Shown here piece by piece: positions 4,400 to 60,934 of a stretch of 64,000 nt of DNA. The stretch is from Anaerohalosphaeraceae bacterium (GTDB lineage: Bacteria; Planctomycetota; Phycisphaerae; Sedimentisphaerales; UBA12454): contig JAIORA010000019.1 in NCBI GenBank assembly GCA_021108375.1, positions 5,660 through 69,659 on the forward strand, given 5' to 3'. The position numbers and the translations under genes are program-made. The notes under the pieces were generated by a model. The model was not told where the DNA came from. It did no database searches and saw only the letters and a list, made by a program, of their open reading frames with translations. Numbering within the stretch: the stretch's first letter is position 1; each line of letters starts with the position of its first letter.

Positions 4400-4415
4400 A
4401 TTCCGTTCCTTGCAG

Positions 4416-5897
4416 TTATTTTGTAATCTCGCAGGTTATTGAGTAATCTACCAGCCCGCTATTATTAATGTCCATATTACTTCCAGTCAATAGTACCGAA
4501 TCAATGCTTTTGCATTCGTTGAGCAGTTTGGCAAAGGCGTTCACCGCTTTGTAAGAAACGGCAATTCCTTCGAGTTCCATAGAGTTCGAGTTTTCTACGG
4601 AGATATTCTGTATCTGCACATTCTTTGGGATATTACTTCCGAGTTCTGCCAGTACCTTGGCCCAGCTTACGAAAACTTCCGGTTTGCCGGAATGTTCCAT
4701 AGCATCCAGACTCAACTGTGTTTTTTCGATTTGTCCCTTAATTGTTTTTTGAGATTCCAGCAATGAACGCATATCATCTTCAATGCTTATCTGTTTTGTT
4801 TGGGCTACGGCTTCGTCAATTTCCAGCGATTTTGAAGTCAGCAATCCGAGCTTCAAAAATATAATCAGCAAAATGACAGCCGCGACGTTTGCGATTAAGA
4901 GTAATTCGCCTTTTGCTTTGTGATAAGCCAGAATTTCTTTGGGCAGAAGGTTCAGGCTGTGTCCGGCAGAATCCGGTTCGAGTATTTTCATCGCGAGACC
5001 TACTGCCACCGGAGATATATATCCGGTGTTATCTTTGATTTCAATTTCACCGCATAAATCCTGCTGCCCGGAAATGTGCAGAACGAGATTTTCAGACGAT
5101 AGCCCATCCTTAAGTTTGTCAGCGGTTTCATCGTCGATTTCATCGCCATTGGTGAACAGCGTTATCTGCCAGGATTGTTCGATGTTCTGAACTTCAAGGT
5201 CGTAATACTGCAAAACCGAATGAATTTCCTGTTCGAGATAGCTGTGCAGATTTTCGAGTTTTCTTGTTCTGAGGAATTCGATATTATTGTTTCTGAAAAC
5301 GCACAATGTTAATATGCTGTCGCGAATCATAACCAGCAGCAGGTTTTTATTTTTCGCAGGGGCAGCTATATTTTTATAGCAAGCTCTTAAATAGCCCAGT
5401 ATTGCCGGCTCAATTCGCCTGACATTCAAATGCTCTTTTTCAAATTTTCTTACCGAGAGTACCATTTCATCGATTTTTGCGGCGCACATCAGGATTTGTT
5501 TCAAGTTTGTAAATTGGTTTGAACCCGATGCGCAATAATCCATTTCTATATTTTTCAATGGAAGCACAGCGTATTGTTTTATTTCATCCTGAACGTATTT
5601 TCTGACGTTTACCGGCGCAGCCTTGGGCAGTTCGAGTATCTGTAGGAGCGAAGGCTCCGCACAGAGCGAAACCGAGCTTGCACGAGTCTTTATCTTGTTC
5701 GTTGATTTGGCAGTTTTTATTGTTTTTGCCAGCGCCAGATGGTCTTCAACTCTGCCATCTACAATGACTCCGGGAGCCAGAGCGATACTAACGGCCTTGA
5801 CGAGTTTTATGCCTGTCTTGCTCTTTTTCAGCAGGGCAAGATTGACCTTGTTTTCAGTAATATCAATGCCTAAGGCTATTTTGGCGTTTATATTCAT
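4416..5897 (-). CDS. PilM-like actin-fold ATPase domain fused to a PilN-like TM/periplasmic segment
   Basis: 493 aa. It starts IALGIDITENKVNLALLKK (PilM/FtsA-like), has an internal TM (LLLIANVAAVILLIIFLKLGLL) and a coiled-coil C-terminal part. Confidence 0.6.
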   Translation of the reverse strand: MNINAKIALGIDITENKVNLALLKKSKTGIKLVKAVSIALAPGVIVDGRVEDHLALAKTIKTAKSTNKIKTRASSVSLCAEPSLLQILELPKAAPVNVRKYVQDEIKQYAVLPLKNIEMDYCASGSNQFTNLKQILMCAAKIDEMVLSVRKFEKEHLNVRRIEPAILGYLRACYKNIAAPAKNKNLLLVMIRDSILTLCVFRNNNIEFLRTRKLENLHSYLEQEIHSVLQYYDLEVQNIEQSWQITLFTNGDEIDDETADKLKDGLSSENLVLHISGQQDLCGEIEIKDNTGYISPVAVGLAMKILEPDSAGHSLNLLPKEILAYHKAKGELLLIANVAAVILLIIFLKLGLLTSKSLEIDEAVAQTKQISIEDDMRSLLESQKTIKGQIEKTQLSLDAMEHSGKPEVFVSWAKVLAELGSNIPKNVQIQNISVENSNSMELEGIAVSYKAVNAFAKLLNECKSIDSVLLTGSNMDINNSGLVDYSITCEITK

Positions 5898-6310
5898 TCG
5901 TTAATCCTCAAACTATTAACTCTTATAACATATGGACTTGTGCTTCCTATTGTAATATCAGCGGCAATTTCAGTAACAAAGCTCTGCGGTGAGGTGCCGG
6001 TCGATGTTATTGTGTTTGTGTTGGAAGTCCACGCCCCGGCTGTTACTGTGTACGAGCCGCCTCCGAAAGATTTGTTTGTAAATCCGGAAGTCCAGGTGTT
6101 GTCGCCTCTTATTTGGGCAAATGCATCGGCAAGGCCGGCCTCGGCGATTGACGTTGCCTGAGTTGAGAACACCTGATTGCGCATAAGCCCTATTCGCTCG
6201 GAATCCATTTGGAGCAAGCCGGCTATGACAGCGGCCATCAATGCTATTACAAAGACGACAACAATCAGTATTGAGCCATTATTTTTTTGTTTTATGTTTT
6301 TATTCATCAC
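5894..6310 (-). CDS. minor pseudopilin-like protein (PilX_N / GspK-like N-terminus)
   Basis: 138 aa. GSILIVVVFVIALMAAVIAGLL...ATSIAEAGLADAFAQI resembles the PilX N-terminal domain. A 4-nt overlap with each neighbouring gene indicates translational coupling. Confidence 0.5.
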   Translation of the reverse strand: MMNKNIKQKNNGSILIVVVFVIALMAAVIAGLLQMDSERIGLMRNQVFSTQATSIAEAGLADAFAQIRGDNTWTSGFTNKSFGGGSYTVTAGAWTSNTNTITSTGTSPQSFVTEIAADITIGSTSPYVIRVNSLRINE

Positions 6311-8508
6311 GGTAATATCTCCCCGCAGCTGATTTCTGTGGTGCTGGCCGGAGTTATAGCTATAGTAATCATTCTGGCTTCGTTGGCTGAGCCGAGCGAG
6401 AAGTTTGCACCTCCGCTGGCCCCTGCGGTTGATTGTTTTACGTATCCTGCTCCGCCAGAGACGCCTCCGACAGAAACCGTTACGTCGTCTATCCAGAGAT
6501 ATTCGCCACCATCAATGCTTGAGCCCTCAAATTTAAGGCGGAAGTTGCTGCGCATATATTGCGAGTTTGTTACAGTGGCCTGATAATTGTGCCATCTCCT
6601 TTCCGGCCAAGTGTTGCCTAACTCGAATATGTTATCGTAACTGCTGCCATCGTAGAACTGCAGATAAACATTGTCACTGTTATCGACACGACTGTCCCTG
6701 TACCAGAAATCGATTGTGAATGAGCTGTAAGAGCTTGTATTGATATTATCAGATATCATATCGTTATCATTTCCGTCGCATCTTGCAGAACGAACTCCGG
6801 TGTGCTTCTGGTCGCTTCTCCAGTCCCAGTCTGTGGTCCACTCTGCAAAGCCGGATGTTTCAAAGTCGTCTTCAAATAATATGTAAGCACTTTTGTCCAT
6901 TGTGATATTTGTGTGGCCCGACAGGCCTGTAACATCTGTAGTAATATCGCTGTCATCGAATGCACCGAGGCGAAGAACTATGGAATTATTGACAGTCGTT
7001 GTTACCGTAGGGCTGGTTGGACTGCTGTCGGAATCATTGCCTGTTGTAAAGTCAGCAATTGGGTCAGTCGTATCATTGCCTGAGAATCTCATTACCCAGC
7101 CGTACGCCTGGCGATTTCCAGACCAACTGAAAGTTGGATTTGTCTCTGAGGTGCCCGCGATTTTGTACCACGCGCCCAGTGTTACATCATTGCTGTAATC
7201 ATCAATGTCAATTTGTGTCCAGCCCGAAGGTGATGTTAAAGCTAAAGAGCTTGAAGTGTCGCCGTCGGTTGCAACTGCTGCGATGAGCAAATCGTCTGCG
7301 CTGCAACCTGAGGGGATAGTAACCCTAAGAGATGTGCCTGATTCCTCTTTGTATTCGTTAAATTCCTCGTATCTGAGGGTATTGGCTAACTGTGCAATCT
7401 CGGCAGCACTAAGAGCAGTGTTGTAAAGCCGAACATCGTCCATTCTGCCGTCGAATGAGGCGATACGGCTGATGGTCAAAACTCCGGTTGTTGTTCCTAT
7501 GGCGGGAGCGTAAGTGCCCGAAACATCTTCCTGTCCATCAATATATATTTTTCGCGTAGTTCCATCTCTTACGGCAGCAATGTGATGCCATTTGCCTATC
7601 GAAAGTTCTGAGCCGGCACCGGAAACTAAATTACTGTTGTTGAGCTCAAATATCACCCTGCCCGTGCGATGAAGCCAGAGCGAATACGAAACGTTTCTTC
7701 CTCCCTTAGTGAAGATGTCGCAAGTGCGATTGAAGCTGTCTGCACGGAGCCAGAGTGCGATGGTGATGTCGCCTGTAATGTCAAGGCTTGAATCTCTTCC
7801 GCAATCGACGTAATCACGCCAGCCATCAAAATAAAGTGCTCCGTCGATTATTCCTGTAACCCAATCTGTGGCAGGGTTTATACCTACAAGTGTTCCGTTG
7901 TTTCCATTGCCTGATGAATCGGCAGCAGTTGACGAGCCGCTTCCGTCATCCATTTTCCAATGGCCTACCAAGTTGCATATGGCAGCAATGTTAGATTCGA
8001 CATAGACATCGGCAAGTACGGTTTTGTCTGAACCCAGAGCCGTTGAGTTTGTGAAGTTTGTTTCAAACTGTATAAAACGTATTTCGTTAACGTCCGTTGT
8101 GGCGGTCAAAGTCGGGTTGATGCTGTAGCAGGTTATCTGGAATTTGTCAACCGGGCCCGCGAGTTGAGCTTCGCTTCCAACTGGGCCGAACTCGACATAA
8201 TTTGCATTGACCTGATAACGGTAGGTTGTTGTGCCTGCATTGTTGGTGAATTCGATGTACCCGTTTGTTACTGAGCTGGCACTGACGAGGCGAATGTTTT
8301 TGGCGGCGCTGAGGTTTCGCTGGATATGTTCGACGAGTACTCTGCCGTTCTGCAGCATTTCAGCAGAAGCTTCGTTGCCAGCCCAACTGTTTCGCATAGC
8401 GGTTATCTGTGGAATCATCACAGCGAAAATAACGCTGATTATCGCCATCGCAATGATGATTTCGACAAGCGTAAAGCCTTTTTCAAATTGTAACGATTTA
8501 TTTCTCAT
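6307..8508 (-). CDS. giant pseudopilin: prepilin-type N-terminal methylation domain + LamG (concanavalin-A-like) domain + two further beta-sandwich-like modules
   Basis: 733 aa. The prepilin motif is KGFTLVEIIIAMAIISVIF. The LamG-like stretch is GNNGTLVG...GALYFDG..DYVDCG...ITIALWLRAD...WHHIAAVRDG..RKIYIDGQ...GRMDDVRLYNTALSAAEIAQL. The C-terminal module (FEDDFETSGFAEW...YLWIDDVTVS) looks like a CBM/MAM-type jelly roll. Confidence 0.8.
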   Translation of the reverse strand: MRNKSLQFEKGFTLVEIIIAMAIISVIFAVMIPQITAMRNSWAGNEASAEMLQNGRVLVEHIQRNLSAAKNIRLVSASSVTNGYIEFTNNAGTTTYRYQVNANYVEFGPVGSEAQLAGPVDKFQITCYSINPTLTATTDVNEIRFIQFETNFTNSTALGSDKTVLADVYVESNIAAICNLVGHWKMDDGSGSSTAADSSGNGNNGTLVGINPATDWVTGIIDGALYFDGWRDYVDCGRDSSLDITGDITIALWLRADSFNRTCDIFTKGGRNVSYSLWLHRTGRVIFELNNSNLVSGAGSELSIGKWHHIAAVRDGTTRKIYIDGQEDVSGTYAPAIGTTTGVLTISRIASFDGRMDDVRLYNTALSAAEIAQLANTLRYEEFNEYKEESGTSLRVTIPSGCSADDLLIAAVATDGDTSSSLALTSPSGWTQIDIDDYSNDVTLGAWYKIAGTSETNPTFSWSGNRQAYGWVMRFSGNDTTDPIADFTTGNDSDSSPTSPTVTTTVNNSIVLRLGAFDDSDITTDVTGLSGHTNITMDKSAYILFEDDFETSGFAEWTTDWDWRSDQKHTGVRSARCDGNDNDMISDNINTSSYSSFTIDFWYRDSRVDNSDNVYLQFYDGSSYDNIFELGNTWPERRWHNYQATVTNSQYMRSNFRLKFEGSSIDGGEYLWIDDVTVSVGGVSGGAGYVKQSTAGASGGANFSLGSANEARMITIAITPASTTEISCGEILP

Positions 8509-8721
8509 TTTATTACTCTAAAGGTACTTGTTGCGGACATAGTCCTTACTTAAAGAGTATCGGCAAAAAGGGCTAAGGCGGTAACTTCTTTGTCAGCAGG
8601 GGGGGGTATATGTTTAATGCCGCTCAATGCGATGTTTTTGTTGTTTTGCCAGCGATATTATAGGATCATACAGGGTTGCTCAGATTTTTTTTGCTCAGGC
8701 TGCGGAACGTCCGATAAATTA

Positions 8722-9129
8722 TTATTCCCATCTCTTTGCGACTTGTGTTTGGAGGGTAACTTCGATTTCGTCAGAGGCCAGCGTTGAATTCCCGTTTTTG
8801 TCGATTCCGACCGATACGGTAATTGCTTTGAGTATCGAATCTCTGTCATCGGTAGTATTGCAAAGGTATGAGCCTTTCAGCACTTCGCCGGTTTGGTTGA
8901 AGTTGTCGGTGAAATTGTATATTGACTGAGCTTTGACTTTGTTGAGTTTGGATTGCGCTAACATTAGGCTTTGTGTTCTGCGGTCAACGATATTGGCGTT
9001 CAAGTTTGCCTGCGTCAGAGCCTTCAGCATCGGGACGACTGCAATCAGCAGCAGCACGGAGGAAACAACCACCTCTGAAAGCGTAAATGCTTTTCTGTGT
9101 TTTCTTGGTTTTCTTAACTTTTTGTGCAT
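8722..9129 (-). CDS. prepilin-type N-terminal cleavage/methylation domain protein (minor pseudopilin, GspI-like size)
   Basis: 135 aa. KAFTLSEVVVSSVLLLIAVVPM, with the conserved Glu at +5. Confidence 0.7.
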   Translation of the reverse strand: MHKKLRKPRKHRKAFTLSEVVVSSVLLLIAVVPMLKALTQANLNANIVDRRTQSLMLAQSKLNKVKAQSIYNFTDNFNQTGEVLKGSYLCNTTDDRDSILKAITVSVGIDKNGNSTLASDEIEVTLQTQVAKRWE

Positions 9130-9157
9130 TTTACTATTCCTGTTGCCGATACTGCGT

Positions 9158-9694
9158 TTACATTATGGGTTTTATTGCTTTCGGTTTCTTCAATGATGTG
9201 ATTGCTTTTTCTGTACATTTTACCATTCCTGTCGCTGAGACTACGCTTATAGCGCACCTCTTACCGCTTGCTGAAACAACAAGGCCGTTGGTTTCAGTAA
9301 GACGGTTGCCCAGTGGGCCGAAAGTAAAGGTTGATGCGCCGGTGCAGCTTACCGCGGAGTTGATCGTTTCGGTCTGTACTATTTCAGATGTGCCGAGGTT
9401 GGTTATCGTATAACCGCTGTAAGACGAGCTGGTTCTTGTAAGACGGATGCTTTTGGAAGCGGACTTTCCGGTCATCGTTAGCCTGAAGCCGCTGGGGTTT
9501 GTCTTGGCATTTGTGATTGCGAGCTGTCGGCATTTTCGCAGGCTGGCTGAAATTTTGCGAGCGGTTGCCTCGGCCTTATACTTAGCGGTCAGCCCAAAGC
9601 TCATTCGCGGTATCGCGACAGCCGCCAGTGCGCCGAGCATCGCTACTACGATGATTAACTCTGCAAGCGTAAATGCTTTTTGTTTAGTTCGCAT
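9158..9694 (-). CDS. prepilin-type N-terminal domain protein (minor pseudopilin, GspH-like)
   Basis: MRTKQKAFTLAELIIVVAMLGALAAVAIP. I prefer the ATG at 9694, which follows AAAGAGG, over the ORF-track start at 9736. Confidence 0.7.
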   Translation of the reverse strand: MRTKQKAFTLAELIIVVAMLGALAAVAIPRMSFGLTAKYKAEATARKISASLRKCRQLAITNAKTNPSGFRLTMTGKSASKSIRLTRTSSSYSGYTITNLGTSEIVQTETINSAVSCTGASTFTFGPLGNRLTETNGLVVSASGKRCAISVVSATGMVKCTEKAITSLKKPKAIKPIM

Positions 9695-9785
9695 AATTGC
9701 CTCTTTACTAAAAAAGGATGGCCGCAATGATTGCAACCATCCTCAGTAGTTTGTCAAAACGGATTCCGTTATTTTTGTTGTCTAC

Positions 9786-10118
9786 TTAGTGTCCCGTGGT
9801 GCTGCAGCTTACTCTCTTGGTTGTAGCGCTCATTGAGTAGCTGGTACTCAGTCCGGTTGTCGGGCAAACTGGTGCGCCGCCAGGGAAATACGATGTGTCG
9901 CCGGTAATGGTTGCCAAGGTTGCCGGATAAGTTCCGTCGTTATTAGCGGCGTAGAGCTCAATCTGTGTGTTCATCAAATCAATGTTAGTGGCGCAGCCGT
10001 TGAGCTTTGCGGTTGCTGCACTTTCAGTAATTCTTGGTACAGCGATTGCAGCCAATGCACCGAGTATCAGTACGACAATCAGCAACTCAACTAATGTAAA
10101 ACCATTTCTTTTTCTCAT
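9786..10118 (-). CDS. major (pseudo)pilin, PulG/GspG-like type IV pilin
   Basis: 110 aa. MRKRNGFTLVELLIVVLILGALAAIAVPR. It is small and contains three Cys, and it is the first pilin gene after the platform gene. Confidence 0.8.
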   Translation of the reverse strand: MRKRNGFTLVELLIVVLILGALAAIAVPRITESAATAKLNGCATNIDLMNTQIELYAANNDGTYPATLATITGDTSYFPGGAPVCPTTGLSTSYSMSATTKRVSCSTTGH

Positions 10119-10222
10119 TTTTGTTCTCCTTTTAGGAATCTTTTAAGGATATTTAGTTCTTTACTTAAAGCATAAGAAGTAATCGGTCTGACAAAGACCG
10201 AACTTTGCTTAAATTTTTATTT

Positions 10223-11419
10223 TTATTTCAAATGTGTCATATAATCGAACATAGGCAGGTACACAGCCATAAGTATTACTCCGATAATAAGGCCTAAACT
10301 CAGCGTAAGAATCGGTTCGAGCTTGACCATAAGGCGAGCAATACTGCGTTCTATGTCTTTTTCGAGAAAATCTACGCCCTTATTCAGCATTGCTCCGAGC
10401 GTGCCGGCCTCTTCGCCGGTATTGGCGAGTTGAATTATTATCGGAGGGAAAAGCGCGTGCTTCTGCATCGATTCCGCTACGGAAGTACCGGCCTGTATGG
10501 ATTGCTGTATGTCGTTGGAAATTTCCGATAGCTGCCAGTTGTGTGCGACCAGGCTCGATATTTGAAGAGCCTTTATAATAGGTACGCCGGTCGATGAGAG
10601 CATCGCAAAGCTGCGAATAAAATTGGAGACCGTTACCATACGGTTCAATTTTCCAAAGACTGGCACTTTGAATTTAAATATGTCCCATTTAGCTCTCACA
10701 TATGCGTTTTTGCGTAACTTGTGAATTGCAAATGGGGCAGCAACGATAATCCCGAGGATGATCGACCAGTAATTTCTCATTATATAGCTGAGAATAATCA
10801 GTACCTGTGTAGGCCCCGGCAGGGCGACGCCGAGCTGGCTGTATATCTTTGAGAAAACCGGCACGATAAATACTATCAGAATCGTTATTATCACAACGCA
10901 AAGCACGCTAACTACTATCGGATAGGTAAAGGCGGCCTTTAGCTTGTTTTTCATATCCGCGCGTTTTTCCAGATATTTTGCACTTATTTCGAGACTTTCA
11001 GCAAGTTTTCCGCCTGATTCGCCGGCTTCGAGCATTCCGAGAAAGAAGTCTGAGAAGATTTTCCTGTATGTGTCGAACGCATCGGTCAGGGACATTCCCA
11101 GTTCGATTTTCCTCTTTATGTCAGTAATTACAGATTTTAAAGCTTCGTTTTCGGTTTGCTTTTCGAGCGTTTCAAGGCATTGAATAATCGACAGCCCGGC
11201 AGAACTCATCCCCGCGAATTTATAGGCGAATTCGACAACTTCAGCCTGCTTTATGTTTGCAAGCGTTGCCTTGATGTTCTTTCTCTTTTTTGCTGAGACG
11301 AGTTTGTATCCGATTTTGCACAGCTCATCTCTAAGCTCGGCCAAATTGCGGACATCTTCATAGACACCGATGAAAAGGTCGCCTTTTTCGTCTCTTGCTT
11401 CGTACTGAAAAGCAGTCAT
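10223..11419 (-). CDS. type II secretion system F family platform protein (GspF/PilC)
   Basis: 398 aa with the duplicated T2SSF domain architecture, three TM segments and the C-terminal VYLPMFD motif. Confidence 0.9.
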   Translation of the reverse strand: MTAFQYEARDEKGDLFIGVYEDVRNLAELRDELCKIGYKLVSAKKRKNIKATLANIKQAEVVEFAYKFAGMSSAGLSIIQCLETLEKQTENEALKSVITDIKRKIELGMSLTDAFDTYRKIFSDFFLGMLEAGESGGKLAESLEISAKYLEKRADMKNKLKAAFTYPIVVSVLCVVIITILIVFIVPVFSKIYSQLGVALPGPTQVLIILSYIMRNYWSIILGIIVAAPFAIHKLRKNAYVRAKWDIFKFKVPVFGKLNRMVTVSNFIRSFAMLSSTGVPIIKALQISSLVAHNWQLSEISNDIQQSIQAGTSVAESMQKHALFPPIIIQLANTGEEAGTLGAMLNKGVDFLEKDIERSIARLMVKLEPILTLSLGLIIGVILMAVYLPMFDYMTHLK

Positions 11420-13179
11420 CAGTAGTCCTCCATATCAACAATCCGCCTTAGCTCATCGATGGTTGTATTGCCGTCGAACACTTCATCAAAACCGCTGGCT
11501 CGCAAAGTTCGCATACCATCACTGATGGCAGTTTCTTTTATTTCGGTATCGCTTAAGCCGTTTATTATCATCTTTTCTATTTTGTTCGTAACCGGCAGGA
11601 TTTCGTAAATACCCTTTCGACCGAGGTAGCCGGTATGGTTGCACATATCGCAGCCTTTGCTCTTGTGCAGAACGAAATTGTCCTTTTCCGGGTTTACATT
11701 TTTGAGCATTTTCAGAGTTTCGTCGTTCGGCTTGAATGACTCTTTGCAGTTTTCGCACGATGTTCTCATAAGCCTTTGAGCTACCGAGCCCAGCAGTGAT
11801 GATGCCAGCAGAAACGGCGGCATACCGATGTTCAGGAATCTCGATATAGCGCCCGCCGCGTCGTTTGTGTGCAATGTGCTGAGAACAAGGTGGCCGGTCA
11901 TCGCTGCGCTTACAGCGATTTCAGCGGTTTCGAGGTCCCTTATTTCGCCGATGAGAATAACGTCAGGGTCCTGACGCAGAATGCTCCGCAGGGCCGAGGC
12001 GAAAGTCAGGCCGGCTCGTGCGTTGACCTGTACCTGTGTTATGCCGTCCAGCCGATACTCGACGGGGTCTTCTACGGTAATGATGTTTTTGTTGCCGGTA
12101 TTGAGAAGCTGCAAAAGCGAATACAGAGTAGTCGTTTTACCGCTGCCGGTCGGGCCGGTCATAAGAATCATCCCATAAGGATTCTCAATCAGTTTTCGGA
12201 GGTTGAAATTGTCCTGCTTAGATGTAACTATTGCATCCAGGTCCCATTTATTGTTGCTTTTGTCGAGGATTCTGAGTACGATTTTTTCGCCGGTAACTGA
12301 TGGCAGTGATGATACACGCAAATCGTATTCGCGGTCGTTGTGCATAGTGCTTATATGGCCGTCCTGCGGGATACGTTTTTCGGATATATCCATATTCGCG
12401 AGAATTTTTATATGGCTAAGCACTTCGGCCTGAGCCGATACTGGTATATCGATTTCCTTGTGCAGTACGCCGTCAACTCTGTATCTGATTTTCATATCAG
12501 ATTCCTGTGGCTCGATGTGAATATCGCTGGCACGGGCATCTATGGCACCGGTGATTATATAGGATACGAGATTGCTTATAGGGTCTTTCTTATCCTGCAT
12601 CTCTTTTAGGAATTCGGTTTTCTCCTGGGCATCTTTTTTGTCGTCCTTTTTCAGACGCATAGAAGCGATGGTCTGCTTTGTTACGCTCTGGACGCTGAAG
12701 TGGTATCGGATAGCTGAACTTATAGCCTCAGGAACCGCCGCCAACGGTACGACTTTGCTGCCGCAGCGAACTTCTATCTGGTCTCTTACAGCAAGGTTCA
12801 TAGGAGAACTCATTGCTACGTAGAAGTTTTTGCCTTCAAGGCGAACACCTATCAAATTATGCTCATTGCAAATATCGGAGGGAATCATTCTCGCTGCCAT
12901 CGGGTCAATGTCATCAGGGGAGAGATTTATGAACTCGATTTTATGGCTGGCCGCGATGATTCGCGTGAGCTTTTCGCCTTTTATATGTTCATACTCTTTA
13001 AGCAGGGCTATGATACTCTTGCCGGTTTTGCTCTGCTTGTCCAGCAGCTCTGTTAATTGCTGAGTTGAGAGTATCCCGTTTTGTCGTATATATGAAATTG
13101 TTTCCTGTTGGTTATTCATAAGTTTTGGATTCCGTACTTTCAGACGCAATAATAACATTTCCATTGCTAAAATCGTCAT
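11419..13179 (-). CDS. GspE/PilB family type IV filament assembly ATPase
   Basis: Walker A GPTGSGKTTT, Asp box ITVEDPVEY, Walker B DPDVILIGEIRD, His box LSTLHTNDA, tetracysteine CENC...CDMC, and an N-terminal T2SSE_N-like domain. The start may instead be the ATG at 13119 (MNNQQ...). Confidence 0.9.
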   Translation of the reverse strand: MTILAMEMLLLRLKVRNPKLMNNQQETISYIRQNGILSTQQLTELLDKQSKTGKSIIALLKEYEHIKGEKLTRIIAASHKIEFINLSPDDIDPMAARMIPSDICNEHNLIGVRLEGKNFYVAMSSPMNLAVRDQIEVRCGSKVVPLAAVPEAISSAIRYHFSVQSVTKQTIASMRLKKDDKKDAQEKTEFLKEMQDKKDPISNLVSYIITGAIDARASDIHIEPQESDMKIRYRVDGVLHKEIDIPVSAQAEVLSHIKILANMDISEKRIPQDGHISTMHNDREYDLRVSSLPSVTGEKIVLRILDKSNNKWDLDAIVTSKQDNFNLRKLIENPYGMILMTGPTGSGKTTTLYSLLQLLNTGNKNIITVEDPVEYRLDGITQVQVNARAGLTFASALRSILRQDPDVILIGEIRDLETAEIAVSAAMTGHLVLSTLHTNDAAGAISRFLNIGMPPFLLASSLLGSVAQRLMRTSCENCKESFKPNDETLKMLKNVNPEKDNFVLHKSKGCDMCNHTGYLGRKGIYEILPVTNKIEKMIINGLSDTEIKETAISDGMRTLRASGFDEVFDGNTTIDELRRIVDMEDY

Positions 13180-54338: not shown

Positions 54339-54362
54339 TTTTAGCCAAAATCCCCAGATTTT

Positions 54363-55879: not shown

Positions 55880-55930
55880 GCACAGGTTTGAAAGAGGTTT
55901 GCCTGCCGACAATCGGGATATTTTTATCGA

Positions 55931-55975
55931 AAAAAAGAGAGCGACTTAATCTACACGATGAGCCGCTCTTTTTTT
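55931..55975. terminator. putative bidirectional intrinsic terminator
   Basis: aaaaaagagagcg-(20-nt loop)-cgctcttttttt lies between the convergent small ORF (+) and the CvpA-domain gene (-). The loop is long, which weakens the call. Confidence 0.4.
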
Positions 55976-56005: not shown

Positions 56006-57766
56006 TTACTCTACAAGAAAACCGCTGGTATTTTTGAAACGAGCTCCTTTTAAAGCAGCAGCAGATGGCAAAACATCGGTTATTATCGTCTGTTTTGTGG
56101 TGTTGATTAGATACAGAAAATACATCTCCGATATCTCGCTTGCCTGCTTGGTTAGCCAGATTTTTTTAGGAAAAGCCTTTGTGTAATTTCCATTCGGCCC
56201 AACCGTTAACCCGTTTTCAGATTTGTCCGTTAAGCTGCAGTAATCAACTTCAAAAACTATTTTATCCCCGACCATACCCTTTGCGACAACGCCCACTGGT
56301 TTGTGGATATTGCCATCCAAGTCTTTTAGGCAGGGGAAATTAGTCGAGTTAATACTACTGCCGACTTTGGGATTGTTGCATTTAAGCCCGATTATTTTTT
56401 GTTTTTTCCCTGCGTTTAAAATACGGATAAAAGCGTGACTTCGGTTGGATACCTGATAACTGTCGTAAATCATCTTCGATTGCGTATATGAAATTTTGCC
56501 ATTGCTGAGTTTCATTTTAAACTTCGTCGTGTTCTGTGCGACAGTTTGAAAAATGGCTGCAGTTCTCATAGCTAAAGGAAAAGTTTTAATCAAATCTTCG
56601 CCGGCGGCTAATTTTGTTCCGTACAAAATTGCGGATTTCTCAGGTTCAACAGTTGCTGATGTTCTCTCGCAATCTGAGGCCTGGATGAATCTTATCGCAT
56701 CTGGTGCTTTATCCGAACCGGTTAATTTCGGTACGGCGGCAATAGCACCCTGTTTAAACTGCATCAGAACCGGTGTTGCAGCTTTTGGGATATAAAAAAC
56801 AAAATCGAGCCATTTAACTCCGCCAGTAAAATCGCCTCTGTTGATGGCGACAGAATCTGAATGTTTTTTGACTTCCACTGTATTGGCCGAACTGATAAAT
56901 CCTATGGGATAAACGGCTGTTCCTTTGCCGTAGAGGTCGCCGGACTGGTCCTTGTTTTTGCAGATAAGTTTTAATTGAGAAATTACAAATTTGACTTTGC
57001 CGTTTTCGTCGAGTCCTCCGCCTTCTTTGATTTTCTTGTTGCTGAATTCAATACGGACAATTACAGGATTGTCGGCAGTTTGCGGCAGGGGCCTTTCCGA
57101 TGAAGAACTCGTTAGCTCAATATCCGGTGTCCATACCGCTTTTACTTTTATTGCGTTTGAGCCGGATATTATTGTGATGTCTTCATCTTGATTTTGACGG
57201 TTGAGATGCAGCTCGTCTATAAAATCCGAGTGAACGACGGCAAAGCTGGTCTTTGAACGCATTGCGCCGGCACTGATAGTTGAAAATACTCTCGACACGA
57301 AACCGTCGGCATTTAAAATTAATGTTTTCTCCCGCTTCAGGTTGCCCGGTTCACTATCGGCTGCGAATCTTTCGTAGGGCCATTGCGATGGAATAGGCAG
57401 CATTGCCACCGCTGTTACCAATACGCCCGCCATAACAAAGCCCGTAAGAATTCCGAATACTGTTCGCCCGATTCGGTCTATGAAATCCTTGAAATATATC
57501 TCAGCAAAGAGCAGTTTGTCAAAAGCCGTATTGACTATTATGAACGCAATTGCAAAAATCAGCAGGAATACTGTCGCATAAACCCATTGGCCTAAAAAAC
57601 CGTAGCCCGTAATAAGCCCGGCGGCAGTTTCGTAATATCCAAAGGCTGTGGTAACAGCTATCACTGAAGCCATAAACGTAAGAACAGACGTTATGAATTT
57701 GCCCTTTAGATAGGCAAGAACGGCTACTCCAAAAACTATTATTATAATTGCCAGTTCGGCGTACAT
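56006..57766 (-). CDS. CvpA-family membrane domain fused to a ~450-aa extracytoplasmic domain of unknown function
   Basis: 586 aa with four N-terminal TM helices in the CvpA (colicin V production) pattern (LAIIIIVFGVAVLAYLKG...GILTGFVMAGVLVTAVAML). I recognise no motif in the remainder. Confidence 0.55.
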   Translation of the reverse strand: MYAELAIIIIVFGVAVLAYLKGKFITSVLTFMASVIAVTTAFGYYETAAGLITGYGFLGQWVYATVFLLIFAIAFIIVNTAFDKLLFAEIYFKDFIDRIGRTVFGILTGFVMAGVLVTAVAMLPIPSQWPYERFAADSEPGNLKREKTLILNADGFVSRVFSTISAGAMRSKTSFAVVHSDFIDELHLNRQNQDEDITIISGSNAIKVKAVWTPDIELTSSSSERPLPQTADNPVIVRIEFSNKKIKEGGGLDENGKVKFVISQLKLICKNKDQSGDLYGKGTAVYPIGFISSANTVEVKKHSDSVAINRGDFTGGVKWLDFVFYIPKAATPVLMQFKQGAIAAVPKLTGSDKAPDAIRFIQASDCERTSATVEPEKSAILYGTKLAAGEDLIKTFPLAMRTAAIFQTVAQNTTKFKMKLSNGKISYTQSKMIYDSYQVSNRSHAFIRILNAGKKQKIIGLKCNNPKVGSSINSTNFPCLKDLDGNIHKPVGVVAKGMVGDKIVFEVDYCSLTDKSENGLTVGPNGNYTKAFPKKIWLTKQASEISEMYFLYLINTTKQTIITDVLPSAAALKGARFKNTSGFLVE

Positions 57767-57787
57767 TTTTTCTCCGGCTAAATTAGA

Positions 57788-59455
57788 CTATTCTTTCTTT
57801 TTCACTGGTTTTTTTACGTTGCTTTTCGGCACAGAAAGAACTCGCACAACTTCGTTTATTGATGTTATGCCCTCCGCAATTTTTCTGATGGCCTGTTCCT
57901 GAATGTAAAGCATTTTTGCTTTTCTGAAGATATTGACGATTTCGTTCATCGTTTTGGCTTTTGCCAGTGCCTCCCGAACAGCATCGTCTATGACGATTGT
58001 TTCAAAGACTCCGGTTCTGCCGTAAAAGCCCGTGCCCTGGCAGTGTTCGCATACAACTGGTTTGCCATGTTTGTCATACTGCACTTGTCCGGGCCGATAG
58101 AAAAGTTTAATTTTCTCGGCGGGTATATTGAATTTCCTCAGGAGTTCTTTGTTGGGTTCGTATGCTTCTTTGCACTCCTGGCAGAGCATTCTTACGAGCC
58201 TTTGATTGCTGATGCCCGACATAGTTTCAAATGCGGTATTTTTGTCGCCGACGAGTTTAATCCATTTGCTTACCGTCTCCATTACGCTTTGAGATTCAAA
58301 TGTAACGTAGGTTATTTTATTATCTTTTGCTGCCTGACAGGCAAGGCGAGCGAGGTCGGCCTCCTGACAGTGCTCAACGCCTATTATGTCCGGGCCGGTT
58401 CGCAGCATTGTCTGAAATCTTTTGGAGTATGTTGTTGTGCCGGTATCACTGAGACTGAAGACGTTCTGGGTTATGTTCGGGAGTTCGCCGGCAGGCTGTT
58501 TTTCCAGGGTGTTTATATTGTTCATAAATGGGTCGTGATGCCTGAGCATTGCATATAAAGTACTGGTCAAGCCGCTTTTCTGTGGGCCGGATACTATGAA
58601 AACACCTTTCTTTTGGGCTTCTTTTATTCCACTTATAGCCTGCTGTTGCTCATTCATCAGGCCTATGTCGCTTATTTTCATAACGCTGTACTCAGCGGTG
58701 AGTTTGAGTCGAACCTGTTCGCCGGCAGTCGTTCCGGCGGTCATTACTTCCCATTTGAATGGCTTTCCGTCTCTTTGAACTGTGAATCTGCCGATTTGCG
58801 GCTTGCGTCTTTCTTTAATGCTGAGGTCGGAAAGATTTTTTAGATAGCGGATAAAGTAATCCACATCTTCTTTTTCCATCGGGTCCTGTTTTTCCACAAC
58901 TCCGTCAATGACATACTGGACATTGTATTCCTGGCCGGAAGGGGTCAACGCGATGGTGCTTACCCTTTTCCATATAGCATCGTCGAAAAATTCCTGCGCA
59001 GTTTTATAGCCGAAAAATTCCGGTGTTTTGGGCAGCGGCGCGGGAACCTGATTTTTGTTTGCGGTTATGAATACCAGTCCCTTTGAAATTTTTTGTGCCT
59101 GCTTTTCTTCGTTGGTAAACAGGCTCTTTATGTGGTCGGCGGTCAGTACCTTTTCGTATTCGTCAACCAGGCCGTTGCGGTGCATAACGTACAATAAGGC
59201 AATAGTCCCAATTGTAATTATGTAAAATGACATACCTATAAGGAACAGCGGAATTAAAATCCAGATGAAAAAAGCCACTAATCCAGCCAGAAACGTTGCG
59301 GCAGTCCATTCTCTCGTTTTAGTTCTAAGCCTTTTGGAATCAAGATTAATCCAACTGACCAGCGGCGGCCAGGCCAGAAGAAGGAGGAAAAACGTAATCA
59401 GCTTTACGGCAGAGGCATAACTGCCTGGTTCTATAACGGCTGTAACAGCGGGCAT
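57788..59455 (-). CDS. membrane-anchored PilB/GspE-like protein with degenerate ATPase motifs (probable pseudo-ATPase)
   Basis: 555 aa with ~3 N-terminal TM helices and a GspE-type N2 + ATPase fold. The motifs read Walker A GPQKSGLTST (Lys replaced), Asp box INTLEKQP, Walker B region DIIGVEHCQ and His box VTFESQS. The tetracysteine CQEC...CEHCQGTG is retained. Confidence 0.7.
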   Translation of the reverse strand: MPAVTAVIEPGSYASAVKLITFFLLLLAWPPLVSWINLDSKRLRTKTREWTAATFLAGLVAFFIWILIPLFLIGMSFYIITIGTIALLYVMHRNGLVDEYEKVLTADHIKSLFTNEEKQAQKISKGLVFITANKNQVPAPLPKTPEFFGYKTAQEFFDDAIWKRVSTIALTPSGQEYNVQYVIDGVVEKQDPMEKEDVDYFIRYLKNLSDLSIKERRKPQIGRFTVQRDGKPFKWEVMTAGTTAGEQVRLKLTAEYSVMKISDIGLMNEQQQAISGIKEAQKKGVFIVSGPQKSGLTSTLYAMLRHHDPFMNNINTLEKQPAGELPNITQNVFSLSDTGTTTYSKRFQTMLRTGPDIIGVEHCQEADLARLACQAAKDNKITYVTFESQSVMETVSKWIKLVGDKNTAFETMSGISNQRLVRMLCQECKEAYEPNKELLRKFNIPAEKIKLFYRPGQVQYDKHGKPVVCEHCQGTGFYGRTGVFETIVIDDAVREALAKAKTMNEIVNIFRKAKMLYIQEQAIRKIAEGITSINEVVRVLSVPKSNVKKPVKKKE

Positions 59456-59478
59456 TTGGTCTCCAATACCTTAAAATT

Positions 59479-60618
59479 CTATAAAATCGCGCCTGAACTG
59501 GCTCTAATTCCCTTGAGTGCCATCTTAAGCTCTTCAACATTCGAAGCGTGTTCAAGGCCGACTTTCAGGTCTATCCATTCATCGTCTATAAGTTTTCTGA
59601 GGCTCTCGGTAAAGTCCTGCATACCCTCGTTTTGACACGCTCTTATAATGGTTTCGAGGTCTGACTCGCGTCCTTCAGAAATAAGTTTCTGAACTATCGG
59701 GTTCGCTATCAGTATTTCGACGGCAGGGACTCTTGAAGCCTCTTTTCTCAGGCCGGGCAGAATTACCTGGCTGATTATAGCTCGTATCGTCAGCGCAAAA
59801 GTTTGTCTGGCAAGTTCCCTTTCTTCCTGTGGGAAGAGGTCGAGAATACGTTGTATCGTTTGCGAGGCACTAACTGAGTGCAGCGTGCCGAAAACCAGGT
59901 GGCCGGTTTCAGCGGCCCTCATCGCAGCGGTAAGTGTCTCGTTATCGCGCATCTCGCCAACAAGCACAACGTCAGGGTCCTGTCTCATAAGCGACCTCAG
60001 AGCGTCTTCAAAGTCGGGAACGTCAATCCCTATTTCCCTTTGGGATACGAGAGCTTTTTTGTCTGTGTGGAGAAATTCCAACGGGTCCTCAATTGTTACG
60101 ATATGGCAGGAGCGTGTTGCGTTGATATGGTCTATCATAGAGGCAATCGTAGTACTTTTGCCGCAACCGGTCGGGCCGGTAACAAGGACAAGGCCATCCC
60201 GGACATTATCGGCAAGGGTTTCGACAACGGGGGGCAGATTAAGACTCGCAAAAGGAGGAATCTCGGAAGTAATTCTTCTGGCGGCCATACTTATCATTGT
60301 TCTCTGCCGGAAAATGTTAATCCTGAATCTATCCGTTGCTGATGGTTGGTAGGCGAAGTCCAAGGCTCCATTTTCGAGGAAGAACTTCTTTTGCTGCTCG
60401 CTGAGTATTTCAAAGACGAGCTTTTCAATCTTTTCCTCAGTTAGAACCGGTGCATTCGTGCTTCTTATGCCGTCGTGAATTCGCAATTTTGGGGGCTGGC
60501 CCACTTTGAGGTGCAAATCACTGGCCTGTGATTTTATGGCAGCACTGAAAAGCTTGTTTATTTCAGGCTCTTTTTCAAAGTGTACGTGGCTGTCTATGGG
60601 CTGTTTGTGTTCTGTCAT
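59479..60618 (-). CDS. pilT: type IV pilus retraction ATPase PilT family
   Basis: 379 aa. ASDLHLKVGQPPKLRIHDG, Walker A GPTGCGKSTT, ITIEDPLEF, DPDVVLVGEMRD and GTLHS. It lacks the N-terminal T2SSE_N domain and the Zn finger, as PilT does. Confidence 0.9.
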   Translation of the reverse strand: MTEHKQPIDSHVHFEKEPEINKLFSAAIKSQASDLHLKVGQPPKLRIHDGIRSTNAPVLTEEKIEKLVFEILSEQQKKFFLENGALDFAYQPSATDRFRINIFRQRTMISMAARRITSEIPPFASLNLPPVVETLADNVRDGLVLVTGPTGCGKSTTIASMIDHINATRSCHIVTIEDPLEFLHTDKKALVSQREIGIDVPDFEDALRSLMRQDPDVVLVGEMRDNETLTAAMRAAETGHLVFGTLHSVSASQTIQRILDLFPQEERELARQTFALTIRAIISQVILPGLRKEASRVPAVEILIANPIVQKLISEGRESDLETIIRACQNEGMQDFTESLRKLIDDEWIDLKVGLEHASNVEELKMALKGIRASSGAIL

Positions 60619-60739
60619 TTTTATACTCCAAGACGTAACTCTCTATTTATTAAGAAGTTACAGATTTGTCTATTTTTTGGCATCGACTGATATTTCCAAG
60701 TTTGGCCGAGGCAGTTCAAAAATAATTACCCAAACCCTC

Positions 60740-60767
60740 ATTCTACGCTAATATGCGATATTGTCAA
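60740..60767 (-). promoter_or_regulatory. sigma-70-like promoter for the pilT operon
   Basis: The minus strand reads TTGACA, a 16-nt spacer, then TAGAAT, ~120 nt upstream of the pilT ATG at 60618. Confidence 0.55.
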
Positions 60768-60892: not shown

Positions 60893-60934
60893 CAATAGTT
60901 TATAATTTTTTGACCAATGAAAGGATTCGAGTTA

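What the first reader, a model, noticed from the sequence alone, without database searches (positions are those of the whole stretch)
56006..60767. pilT operon encoding a transmembrane, catalytically degenerate PilB/GspE paralogue and a CvpA-domain giant membrane protein
Three minus-strand genes are separated by only 23 and 21 nt, and a near-consensus promoter (TTGACA-16-TAGAAT) lies at 60740-60767.
- The first gene is a normal PilT with all ATPase motifs intact.
- The second (57788-59455) has the GspE/PilB N2 + ATPase + Zn-finger layout, but it is preceded by about three hydrophobic helices. Its catalytic motifs can be compared directly with the bona fide assembly ATPase at 11419-13179 in this window. 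Walker A is GPQKSGLTST versus GPTGSGKTTT. The Asp box is INTLEKQP versus ITVEDPVE. Walker B is DIIGVEHCQ versus DVILIGEIRD. The His box is VTFESQS versus LSTLHTND. The CxxC...CxxC tetracysteine is kept.
- The third gene fuses a CvpA-type 4-TM domain to ~450 aa of unrecognisable extracytoplasmic sequence.
Secretion ATPases of this family are soluble hexamers. I do not know of a characterised membrane-tethered pseudo-ATPase co-transcribed with a retraction ATPase. It could be a membrane docking or regulatory partner for PilT, or part of a distinct envelope machine.
Basis: partly seen in the sequence, partly recalled or inferred. Interest (0 to 1): 0.7.

Follow-up and report, generated by a model that had tools for sequence, protein, structure and literature searches.

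The report
Membrane-anchored pseudo-PilB cassette with PilT
A three-gene cassette in planctomycete bacteria pairs a normal pilus-retraction motor (PilT) with a membrane-embedded PilB/GspE-like protein that lacks the key ATP-binding lysine and a CvpA-type membrane protein; the set is conserved in hundreds of species, I found no description of it, and it may be an unrecognised envelope machine.

Summary
Three minus-strand genes, 23 and 21 nt apart, encode:
- a canonical PilT;
- a 555-aa PilB/GspE-fold protein with three N-terminal TM helices and remodelled catalytic motifs;
- a 586-aa protein with a four-TM CvpA domain and β-rich periplasmic domains that match nothing known.

The trio is a self-contained cassette. 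In 80 Phycisphaerae/Sedimentisphaerales genomes, PilT lies upstream in 79 and the CvpA gene downstream in 79. Flanking genes are shared in at most 18.

None of 120 family members has the Walker A lysine. The remodelled pocket is nevertheless more conserved than the rest of the protein, and an acidic residue always sits at or next to the catalytic-Glu position. The site is therefore repurposed, not decaying.

The 3-TM module defines a large clade whose named members are all Planctomycetota. A few members keep intact motifs, so membrane anchoring preceded catalytic loss. The pair of anchored ATPase-like protein plus CvpA protein is the deep core. PilT accompanies it in about half of the distant lineages sampled.

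No curated family or paper describes it. My best reading, held with moderate confidence, is an inner-membrane complex in which the non-hydrolysing ring docks PilT onto the CvpA protein. I rate it a new variant of a known kind. Function is untested.

The parts
60740..60767 (-). Sigma-70-like promoter match TTGACA-16-TAGAAT, about 120 nt upstream of the pilT ATG
   Evidence: 11 of 12 matches. The count of such sites in the region (12) is not above shuffled expectation (10.0 +/- 3.6), so this is suggestive only.
59479..60618 (-). Gene 1: canonical PilT-type retraction ATPase (379 aa)
   Evidence: TIGR01420 scores 413 bits against a cutoff of 319. The best solved relatives are PilT (2ewv, 305 bits), ahead of PilU (245 bits). 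Motifs are intact: Walker A GPTGCGKST, Asp box TIEDPLE, Walker B VLVGEMRD, His box HLVFGTLHS.
57788..59455 (-). Gene 2: membrane-anchored PilB/GspE-fold protein without a Walker A lysine (555 aa)
   Evidence: PF00437 at 1.3e-49. GspE/PilB equivalog scores of 175-192 bits are far below the 630-675 cutoffs. Foldseek best matches are PilF/PilB/GspE, E about 1e-29, TM 0.72-0.78. There are 1559 relatives with E<=1e-5; the 120 listed have 52-80% identity over the full length.
59168..59416 (-). Gene 2, aa 14-96: family-defining 3-TM module
   Evidence: Hydropathy and AF2 helices 16-42, 47-67, 71-96. Residues K18, W29, D39, W50, G74, Y89, H92, R93 and N94 are invariant within the family. A profile of aa 1-150 hits all TM-bearing subfamilies and none of the soluble PilB controls. 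No Pfam match.
58991..59167 (-). Gene 2, aa 97-155: conserved cytoplasmic linker between the TM module and the N2 domain
   Evidence: Mean majority-residue frequency 0.71, with 11 of 59 columns invariant, including T131, A132, N133, N135, P138 and P140.
58562..58591 (-). Gene 2, aa 289-298: remodelled P-loop SGPQKSGLTS (family consensus GP[KR]KSG[VIL]T[ST])
   Evidence: Position 296, the canonical Lys, is V80/I25/L8/T5/A2 in 120 members. Position 293 is Lys in 110 of 120. G290 and G295 are invariant, and T297 is Thr in 118 of 120.
58040..58183 (-). Gene 2, aa 425-472: tetracysteine (CxxC...CxxC) zinc module
   Evidence: All four Cys are present in 120 of 120 family members and in 110 of 114 distant representatives.
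56006..57766 (-). Gene 3: CvpA-domain membrane protein with periplasmic beta-rich domains (586 aa)
   Evidence: PF02674 at 34.8 bits against a cutoff of 29.3. AF2 model pLDDT 83, pTM 0.78. No solved-structure match with E below 1e-3. Nineteen homologues in long (~590 aa) and short (~365 aa) forms.
57383..57766 (-). Gene 3, aa 1-128: four-TM CvpA (Colicin_V) domain
   Evidence: Pfam aa 5-128. AF2 helices 2-21, 24-54, 59-85, 94-122. E46 in TM2 is nearly invariant.
57197..57397 (-). Gene 3, aa 124-190: invariant juxtamembrane motif WPYxRF...LLNADGF...SxGS...H...LNR
   Evidence: Invariant columns P124, P130, Y131, R133, F134, L151, N152, A153, D154, G155, S165, G167, S174, H179, L188 and N189.
56732..57169 (-). 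Gene 3, aa 200-345: conserved periplasmic beta domain 1
   Evidence: tblastn finds aa ~136-370 in 75 of 80 genome loci. AF2 predicts beta strands across 206-344.
56009..56659 (-). Gene 3, aa 370-586: optional C-terminal beta domain 2
   Evidence: Present in full only in L024, L034 and L083, and partly in L073, of 80 loci. Absent from the ~365-aa forms.
55930..55969 (-). Intrinsic-terminator-like hairpin plus T7 run, 37 nt after the gene 3 stop
   Evidence: Stem AGAGCGGCT...AGTCGCTCT, dG -21.5 kcal/mol. The consensus scan missed it, probably because the loop exceeds its 8-nt limit.
2548..13179 (-). Context, not part of the cassette: complete T4P/T2SS-type operon (secretin, PilO, PilMN, pilins, GspF/PilC, MshEN-PilB) that has no PilT

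Best explanation
**What is shown.** The three genes form one conserved cassette, probably an operon. It is specific to Planctomycetota, mainly Phycisphaerae/Sedimentisphaerales. It encodes an active PilT, a PilB/GspE-fold protein anchored in the inner membrane by its own 3-TM module, and a CvpA-family four-TM protein with periplasmic beta domains.

**What is inferred.**
- The three proteins form one inner-membrane complex that works apart from the pilin/PilC/secretin machinery.
- The anchored PilB-like protein descends from an active membrane-tethered motor. In this lineage it has become a non-hydrolysing ring or adaptor. It possibly still binds a nucleotide in its conserved, remodelled pocket.
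- It contacts the CvpA-type protein through its TM module. Its conserved cytoplasmic linker and ATPase-like body dock the PilT hexamer.
- PilT supplies the ATP-driven work, which is passed to the periplasmic domains of the CvpA protein. Their substrate in the envelope is unknown.
For: **Cassette.**
- Gaps of 23 and 21 nt, an SD-like GGAG before each ATG, a promoter-like site upstream and a strong terminator hairpin downstream.
- In 80 species genomes PilT is upstream in 79 and CvpA downstream in 79, while each flanking gene is shared in only 4-18. A second probe, overlapping in genomes, gave 68 of 69 and 70 of 74.

**Independence from T4P.**
- Secretin, PilMN, PilO and pilin give 0 hits in 89 loci.
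- The GspL/PilM-binding N1/MshEN region is replaced by the TM module.

**Deep pairing with CvpA.** A CvpA-domain gene follows the anchored ATPase-like gene in 7 of 8 informative distant loci (L085, L086, L088, L089, L090, L092, L093).

**Anchoring before decay.** The 3-TM module profile hits five members with intact motifs, and L090 carries the whole trio with an intact ATPase.

**Non-hydrolysing but functional.**
- Walker A Lys is absent in all 120 members, the His-box histidines are absent, and the Asp-box Asp is replaced by K/R in all 120.
- The protein is nearly as conserved as PilT (median 53% against 62% identity).
- Its pocket regions (0.75-0.83) are more conserved than most other regions of the protein (0.53-0.76).

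**PilT is active-type** in 85 loci.
Against: - No physical interaction, expression or phenotype data exist. Multimer modelling was not available.
- PilT homologues are known only to act on pilin filaments through PilC, and the window's own T4P operon lacks a PilT. The cassette PilT may therefore simply be that system's retraction motor.
- PilT is absent next to the pair in 4 of 8 distant loci. It is present next to an intact anchored ATPase in L090. PilT is therefore neither obligatory nor merely a substitute for lost activity.
- The conserved Lys 292/293, Thr 297, Asp 356 and an acidic residue at 361/362 could still support catalysis.
- AF2 confidence is lowest exactly over the pocket, residues 293-339.
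- CvpA function is itself unknown.
Confidence: 0.4

Rival explanations
1. T4P accessory module. The cassette PilT is the retraction motor of the ordinary type IV pilus encoded elsewhere (here at 2548-13179). The anchored pseudo-PilB and the CvpA protein tether, time or gate PilT at the pilus base, for example by occupying the PilB site on the platform so that PilT can engage.
For: - The window's T4P operon has PilB and PilC but no PilT.
- The cassette PilT is fully canonical and keeps an AIRNLIRE-like A-V-R-K-L-I-S-E motif.
- pilT genes commonly lie away from pilBCD and next to a paralogous ATPase. The pilT-pilU example is from my own knowledge; PilT-dependent secondary ATPases are discussed in PMC11656802.
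- Gene 2 keeps the PilB fold, zinc module and N2 arginine motif.
Against: - The cassette is never next to T4P genes in 89 loci.
- The pair of anchored ATPase plus CvpA exists without PilT and with an intact ATPase (L088, L086, L093).
- The N1/MshEN region that links PilB/GspE to PilM/GspL is missing.
- A permanently tethered ring is hard to reconcile with the exchange of PilB and PilT at one platform. This last point is inference.
Confidence: 0.25
2. Gene 2 is still an ATPase with a non-canonical active site. Lys 292/293 would replace the Walker A lysine, and Glu 361/Asp 362 would replace the Walker B glutamate. The cassette would then be a two-motor (extension-like plus retraction-like) machine.
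For: - The pocket is more conserved than most other regions of the protein.
- Position 292 is K/R in 109 of 120 members and position 293 is Lys in 110 of 120.
- G290 and G295 are invariant, and T297 is Thr in 118 of 120.
- D356 is present in 115 of 120, and an acidic residue sits at 361 or 362 in all 120.
- The arginines R217, R352, R419 and R422 are essentially invariant.
- Relatives with the same TM module and fully intact motifs exist, one of them (L090) with PilT upstream.
Against: - The Walker A lysine is absent in all 120 members.
- Lys 293 is not conserved in the other TM-bearing subfamilies.
- Both His-box histidines are gone. The Asp-box Asp is replaced by K/R, and the second Asp-box Glu is replaced by A/S/I in most members (Glu in 6 of 120).
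- Equivalog scores are less than a third of the cutoffs.
Confidence: 0.15
3. Gene 2 is a decaying, functionless relic of a duplicated pilB, and the gene order is an accident of descent.
For: Canonical catalytic residues are lost.
Against: - Full-length conservation at 49-62% identity across 80 species.
- Numerous invariant residues outside the old motifs.
- No frameshifts or truncations in the complete sequences examined.
- The pocket is more conserved than most other regions of the protein.
- Synteny is kept while the flanks are scrambled.
Confidence: 0.02

Closest known systems
[quoted passage not shown]
   Same: N2 plus C-terminal ATPase-domain fold (Foldseek E about 1e-29, TM 0.72-0.78), the N2 'ExRxPQxG' motif, conserved arginines and the tetracysteine zinc module.
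   Different: - It has a 3-TM N-terminal module instead of the soluble N1/MshEN domains.
- The Walker A lysine is absent, the Asp box and His box are replaced, and the Walker B acid is shifted.
- It scores less than a third of the equivalog cutoffs.
- It is not encoded with PilC, pilins or a secretin.
PilT with a dependent paralogous ATPase (pilT-pilU type arrangement)
   Same: A bona fide pilT is immediately followed by a gene of the same ATPase superfamily. Secondary ATPases that need PilT are known (PMC11656802).
   Different: PilU is a soluble, catalytically competent PilT-class protein. Here the partner is PilB-class, membrane-integral and lacks the Walker A lysine.
GspE-GspL (and PilB-PilM) membrane tethering
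   Same: The extension ATPase is held at the inner membrane. The GspE-GspL complex 4pht is among the structural matches.
   Different: In those systems tethering uses a separate bitopic protein that binds the N1 domain. Here the anchor is fused, polytopic and itself conserved.
CvpA (colicin V production protein) family
   Same: The four-TM PF02674 domain is at the N-terminus of gene 3.
   Different: CvpA proteins are described as inner-membrane proteins of largely unknown function, linked to envelope stress (bioRxiv 10.1101/2020.09.25.314492). Gene 3 adds about 450 aa of periplasmic beta domains with no known relatives and is coupled to ATPase-family genes. From memory, and not tested here, the mycobacterial protease MarP also fuses a CvpA-like TM domain to a periplasmic domain.
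Non-catalytic ATPase-like partners in related machines (archaellum FlaH with FlaI; TadZ/CpaE in Tad pili)
   Same: The concept is the same: a nucleotide-binding but poorly hydrolysing or non-hydrolysing partner organises an active secretion-type ATPase. FlaH/FlaI is covered in PMC6011876 (listed, not read). TadZ is from my own knowledge.
   Different: Those partners belong to other folds (RecA/KaiC-like, ParA/MinD-like) and are not membrane-integral.

Membership tests
PilT/PilU retraction ATPases (TIGR01420), gene 1 | Score above the curated family cutoff | tested here: met
   413.1 bits against a cutoff of 319.1. Upstream PilTs in distant loci score 380-397 bits.
PilT/PilU retraction ATPases (TIGR01420), gene 1 | Intact Walker A, Asp box, Walker B and His box | tested here: met
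   GPTGCGKST, TIEDPLE, VLVGEMRD, HLVFGTLHS. Canonical forms predominate among the 85 loci; a few variants occur.
PilT/PilU retraction ATPases (TIGR01420), gene 1 | PilT-specific AIRNLIRE motif | tested here: inconclusive
   The window has P-I-V-Q-K-L-I-S-E. Orthologues mostly have A-V-R-K-L-I-S-E, which is similar but not identical.
GspE/PilB extension ATPases, gene 2 | N2 plus C-terminal ATPase-domain fold | tested here: met
   PF00437 covers aa 154-538. phmmer to PilF/GspE/PilB structures gives 1e-31 to 5e-42. Foldseek TM 0.72-0.78.
GspE/PilB extension ATPases, gene 2 | C-terminal tetracysteine zinc module | tested here: met
   C425, C428, C469 and C472 are present in 120 of 120 members.
GspE/PilB extension ATPases, gene 2 | Walker A GxxGxGK[ST] with the catalytic lysine | tested here: not met
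   The window has GPQKSGLT. Position 296 is V/I/L/T/A in 120 of 120 members.
GspE/PilB extension ATPases, gene 2 | Asp box (ExDPxE) and His box (two His) | tested here: not met
   The Asp-box Asp is K/R in 120 of 120. The second Glu is A/S/I in most members (Glu in 6 of 120). The second His-box histidine is E96/K12/N6/D5/Q1. In the window protein the first histidine is Lys.
GspE/PilB extension ATPases, gene 2 | Walker B with catalytic Glu (hhhhGE) | tested here: inconclusive
   D356 is kept in 115 of 120. Glu sits at the canonical column in only 6 of 120, but an acidic residue is at 361 or 362 in all 120.
GspE/PilB extension ATPases, gene 2 | Curated equivalog score (TIGR02533 GspE, TIGR02538 PilB) | tested here: not met
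   192.5 against 630.25, and 175.6 against 675.65.
GspE/PilB extension ATPases, gene 2 | Soluble protein with an N1/MshEN-type N-terminal region | tested here: not met
   There is no MshEN/N1 match. The N-terminus is a 3-TM module with no Pfam family.
GspE/PilB extension ATPases, gene 2 | ATP hydrolysis and hexamer formation | not testable with these tools
   Needs purified protein.
CvpA / Colicin_V (PF02674), gene 3 | Four-TM domain scoring above the Pfam gathering threshold | tested here: met
   34.8 bits against 29.3, aa 5-128. AF2 gives four TM helices. Downstream genes in distant loci hit the same model or the family profile.
CvpA / Colicin_V (PF02674), gene 3 | Small stand-alone membrane protein architecture | tested here: not met
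   Gene 3 is 586 aa with two periplasmic beta domains. Relatives range from 201 to 609 aa.
Known anti-phage defence systems (PADLOC) | Match of the components to a defence-system model | tested here: not met
   Genes 2 and 3 give no hits. PilT gives only weak generic P-loop hits. The context is chromosomal housekeeping genes.

The most novel reading that the evidence does not exclude
The membrane-anchored PilB/GspE-like protein and its CvpA-type partner, with or without PilT, form the core of a previously unrecognised envelope nanomachine specific to Planctomycetota. It would derive from the type IV pilus/type II secretion motor but work without pilins, PilC or a secretin. In most lineages the anchored ring would have become a nucleotide-sensing stator or adaptor, and PilT would provide the force applied to a periplasmic beta-domain effector.
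Probability: 0.3. Interest if true: 0.85.

Novelty: new variant of a known kind. Interest (0 to 1): 0.66.

Why it matters
- **A break in a general assumption.** PilB/GspE/PilT ATPases are treated as soluble hexamers that visit a membrane platform. Here a large, conserved clade is itself membrane-integral and has mostly lost the Walker A lysine, yet it stays under strong selection and is locked to a PilT gene and a CvpA gene.
- **A new role for PilT.** If the three proteins form a complex, PilT would have a role outside classical pilus retraction.
- **A handle on CvpA.** The CvpA family is widespread and its mechanism is unknown. This would give it its first mechanistic partner.
- **A natural series for pseudoenzyme evolution.** The clade runs from intact through partly degenerate to degenerate forms, so it can show how a motor ATPase becomes a pseudoenzyme.
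- **Planctomycete envelope biology.** The cassette is a conserved, lineage-specific candidate in an envelope that is unusual and poorly understood.
- **A testable host.** One carrier, Anaerohalosphaeraceae bacterium U12dextr (L116), is not labelled as a MAG, so it may be culturable and open to experiments.

Tried and rejected
- **PilT as a replacement for a dead ATPase.** I proposed that PilT was recruited only where the anchored ATPase is dead. L090 rejects this: it has the full trio with an intact anchored ATPase. L086 and L093 are degenerate and have no adjacent PilT.
- **The CxxCxxCC neighbour as a fourth component.** It recurs in L088 but in only 4 of 80 close loci. Rejected.
- **Defence system.** No PADLOC match, and the neighbours are housekeeping genes. 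Rejected.
- **Fold identification of gene 3's periplasmic domains.** Foldseek against the PDB gave only noise (E above 1e-3, TM below 0.15), and Pfam gave nothing at E up to 1.
- **Genome scans with distant-subfamily alignments.** A4, A5 and A6 failed for lack of a conserved stretch. The single protein P0180 found nothing. The taxonomy of distant subfamilies therefore rests on source names.
- **Literature.** Seven searches and one review found no description. The MarP-CvpA link I recalled could not be confirmed in the corpus.
- **Promoter significance.** Not above chance.

Full report
**1. Observation**

The gaps are 23 and 21 nt. Each ATG is preceded by GGAG at 5-7 nt.

TTGACA-16-TAGAAT lies at 60767->60740. 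Such matches are no more frequent here than in shuffled sequence (12 found, 10.0 +/- 3.6 expected), and an equally good one lies inside gene 3. The promoter is therefore only suggestive.

A strong hairpin followed by T7 (dG -21.5 kcal/mol, about 55969-55930) lies 37 nt after the gene 3 stop. The next gene is 590 nt further on.

**2. Gene 1 is an ordinary PilT**

- It exceeds the TIGR01420 cutoff (413 against 319 bits).
- It matches solved PilT structures better than PilU (305 against 245 bits).
- It has intact Walker A, Asp box, Walker B and His box.
- Across 85 related loci, canonical motif forms predominate. The AIRNLIRE region reads A/P-V-R/K-K-L-I-S/A-E.

**3. Gene 2 has the PilB/GspE fold but is membrane-integral and remodelled**

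*Fold.* PF00437 covers aa 154-538. phmmer finds PilF, GspE and PilB structures at 1e-31 to 5e-42. The AlphaFold2 model (pLDDT 72.7) matches PilF/PilB/GspE cores at E about 1e-29 and TM 0.72-0.78, well ahead of PilT or DotB. GspE and PilB equivalog scores (192 and 176 bits) are far below their cutoffs (630 and 676).

*Membrane anchor.* The first ~100 residues form three TM helices by hydropathy and by AF2 (16-42, 47-67, 71-96). Five K/R residues in the 36-50 loop place the ATPase-like body in the cytoplasm. There is no N1/MshEN domain and no Pfam match for the N-terminal module.

| Motif | Gene 2 | Window PilB |
|---|---|---|
| Walker A | GPQKSGLTST | GPTGSGKTTT |
| Asp box | TLEKQPAGE | TVEDPVEYR |
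| Walker B | DIIGVEHCQ | DVILIGEIRD |
| His box | KITYVTFESQS | HLVLSTLHTND |

**4. The substitutions are a family trait under selection, not decay**

The large protein search gave 1559 relatives with E<=1e-5. The top 120 are all 545-572 aa, 52-80% identical, with 96-100% coverage. Among those 120:

- The Walker A lysine column is V80/I25/L8/T5/A2.
- The canonical fourth glycine is Lys in 110, and the position before it is K/R in 109.
- The Asp-box Asp is K/R in all 120.
- The second His-box histidine is E96/K12/N6/D5/Q1.
- The four cysteines, R217, P219, Q220, R419 and R422 are invariant.
- Glu sits at the canonical Walker B column in only 6, but an acidic residue is at 361 or 362 in all 120.

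Region-by-region conservation shows the pocket is more conserved than most other regions, which range 0.53-0.76. The values are P-loop 0.78, the following helix 0.83, Asp box 0.77 and Walker B 0.75. Median identity to the window across 80 species is 62% for PilT, 53% for gene 2 and 35% for gene 3.

My reading is that the site has been repurposed, plausibly for nucleotide or ligand binding without hydrolysis. Residual or non-canonical catalysis is not excluded.

**5. Gene 3**

- PF02674 (CvpA/Colicin_V) covers aa 5-128.
- The AF2 model is good (pLDDT 83, pTM 0.78). It shows four TM helices, a helical juxtamembrane segment and two beta-rich domains.
- Foldseek finds nothing meaningful in the PDB, and Pfam finds nothing in aa 136-586.
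- The alignment of 19 homologues shows an invariant motif after TM4, WPYxRF...LLNADGF...SxGS...H...LNR, and a nearly invariant Glu in TM2.
- Long (~590 aa) and short (~365 aa) forms exist. Beta domain 1 is found in 75 of 80 loci, and beta domain 2 in about four.
- With four TM helices and positively charged cytoplasmic loops, the C-terminal domains are periplasmic. This is inference.

**6. The trio is a cassette**

A scan of species-representative genomes found 193 genomes with a relative of gene 2. The best 80 (49-62% identity) are all Phycisphaerae, Sedimentisphaerales or Anaerohalosphaeraceae-type assemblies.

- PilT is directly upstream in 79 of 80. The exception starts at a contig end.
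- A CvpA-domain gene is directly downstream in 79 of 80. The exception, L053, has a masked run there.
- Flanking genes of the window are shared in only 4-18 of 80.
- T4P genes are never adjacent: secretin, PilMN, PilO and pilin give 0 hits in 89 loci.
- A second probe, whose genomes overlap the first set, gave 68 of 69 and 70 of 74. It includes a record not labelled as a MAG, Anaerohalosphaeraceae bacterium U12dextr (L116), which has the full trio.
- The window's neighbours are housekeeping genes: UvrB, PtsI, RNase G and HisRS.

**7. A much larger clade, and the order of events**

The exhaustive representative search listed about 114 full-length representatives (one per 50%-identity cluster) at 26-40% identity that align from residue ~10 to ~540.

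A profile of aa 1-150, built only from the window's family, hits every TM-bearing subfamily and none of the soluble PilB controls. The 3-TM module is therefore a homologous, family-defining domain.

Among the 114 representatives:

| Feature kept | Count of 114 |
|---|---|
| Walker A Lys | 12 |
| Arg at that position | 13 |
| Canonical Walker B Glu | 20 |
| Second His-box histidine | 10 |
| All four Cys | 110 |

Five module-bearing members have intact or near-intact motifs (P0145, P0186, P0205, P0260, P0263). Anchoring therefore preceded catalytic loss, and there is a gradient of decay.

Neighbourhoods of distant members:

- A CvpA-domain gene follows in 7 of 8 informative loci.
- A true PilT (380-397 bits on TIGR01420) precedes in 4 of 8 (L085, L089, L090, L092).
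- L090 has the trio with an intact anchored ATPase.
- L088 (labelled Schlesneria) has an intact anchored ATPase plus CvpA without PilT.

All named members are Planctomycetota. Profile scores drop sharply, from 505 to 365 bits, to ordinary soluble MshEN-PilB/GspE proteins.

**8. Mechanism**

*Shown:* a conserved cassette, a membrane-integral PilB-fold protein without a Walker A lysine, an active-type PilT, a CvpA-type partner, and independence from T4P gene clusters.

*Inferred (confidence about 0.4):* the three proteins form one inner-membrane complex. The anchored ring contacts the CvpA protein through its TM module and docks PilT through its conserved linker and ATPase-like body. PilT provides the work, and the periplasmic beta domains are the output.

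*Rivals:*
- A T4P retraction accessory (0.25). This is supported by the PilT-less T4P operon at 2548-13179.
- A still-active non-canonical ATPase (0.15).
- A relic (0.02).

**9. Comparison with what is known**

- NCBIfam has no specific model. Source annotations are generic: 'ATPase, T2SS/T4P/T4SS family', 'TadA' or 'hypothetical'.
- Seven full-text searches found no description of a membrane-anchored or lysine-less PilB/GspE or of a PilT-CvpA link.
- A 2024 review of PilB and its cofactors contains neither 'transmembrane' nor 'Planctomycet'.
- CvpA function is still called largely unknown.
- The corpus excludes most subscription journals, so absence of a description is not proof.

**10. Verdict**

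Gene 2 fails the membership tests for a functional GspE/PilB (Walker A, Asp box, His box, cutoffs, N-terminal architecture) while keeping the fold. I therefore file it as a new variant of the secretion-ATPase superfamily, set in a conserved, apparently undescribed three-gene cassette whose function is unknown.

Noticed in passing
window 2548-13179 (-): A complete T4P/T2SS-type operon with no PilT gene in it: secretin, PilO/GspM-like, a PilM-PilN fusion, a 733-aa N-methyl pilin carrying a LamG domain, a second pilin, GspF/PilC and an MshEN-PilB.
   Followed up: partly
proteins P0202, P0212, P0215, P0226, P0229, P0249, P0267, P0269, P0369: Soluble proteins of about 1000 aa with fully canonical motifs. 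Those in the representative search show two T2SSE matches. One source name is 'Minisyncoccia'. They look like tandem or double PilB-like ATPases.
   Followed up: no
window 60917-61354 (+); L088 7774-8121: A YkgJ-type CxxCxxCC protein (PF03692) is the divergent neighbour of pilT here. It also lies directly after the CvpA gene in the Schlesneria-type locus (28.6% identity). Only 4 of 80 close loci have it, so it is probably coincidence.
   Followed up: yes
L085 4015-4815; L092 1357-2124: A HisF/His_biosynth-like gene lies directly upstream of the cassette PilT in two different distant subfamilies.
   Followed up: no
L086 8248-10900: Within 5 kb downstream of a PilT-less pair lie an EAL/HDOD protein and a 446-aa soluble, N1-less GspE/PilB-like ATPase (377 bits on TIGR02533). 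This is a possible alternative partner and a possible link to c-di-GMP.
   Followed up: partly
window 52020-55415 (-): A trio of radical-SAM protein, Ser/Thr kinase with a C-terminal TM helix, and APH-type kinase lies downstream of the cassette. It is co-conserved in 16-18 of 80 loci and in L001/L002, as a separate transcription unit after a terminator.
   Followed up: partly
window 57493-57522 (-): A second 11-of-12 promoter-like match (TTGACA-18-TATATT) lies inside gene 3.
   Followed up: no
L096 and L166 (same MAG, AUK267): One genome carries two copies of the anchored pseudo-ATPase (75% and 48% identity to the probe). A CvpA-domain gene follows each copy.
   Followed up: partly
L053 7666-8900 (CP070830.1): This is the only long locus in the first 80-genome set (L005-L084) without a CvpA gene after the pseudo-ATPase. 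An opposite-strand radical-SAM/B12-type gene containing a masked N-run lies there instead.
   Followed up: partly
window ~26000-52000 (+): A long plus-strand block has strong positive GC skew (+0.16 to +0.23). It encodes housekeeping genes (UvrB, PtsI, RNase G, acyl-CoA dehydrogenase). The skew collapses at about 52 kb, where the minus-strand genes begin.
   Followed up: no
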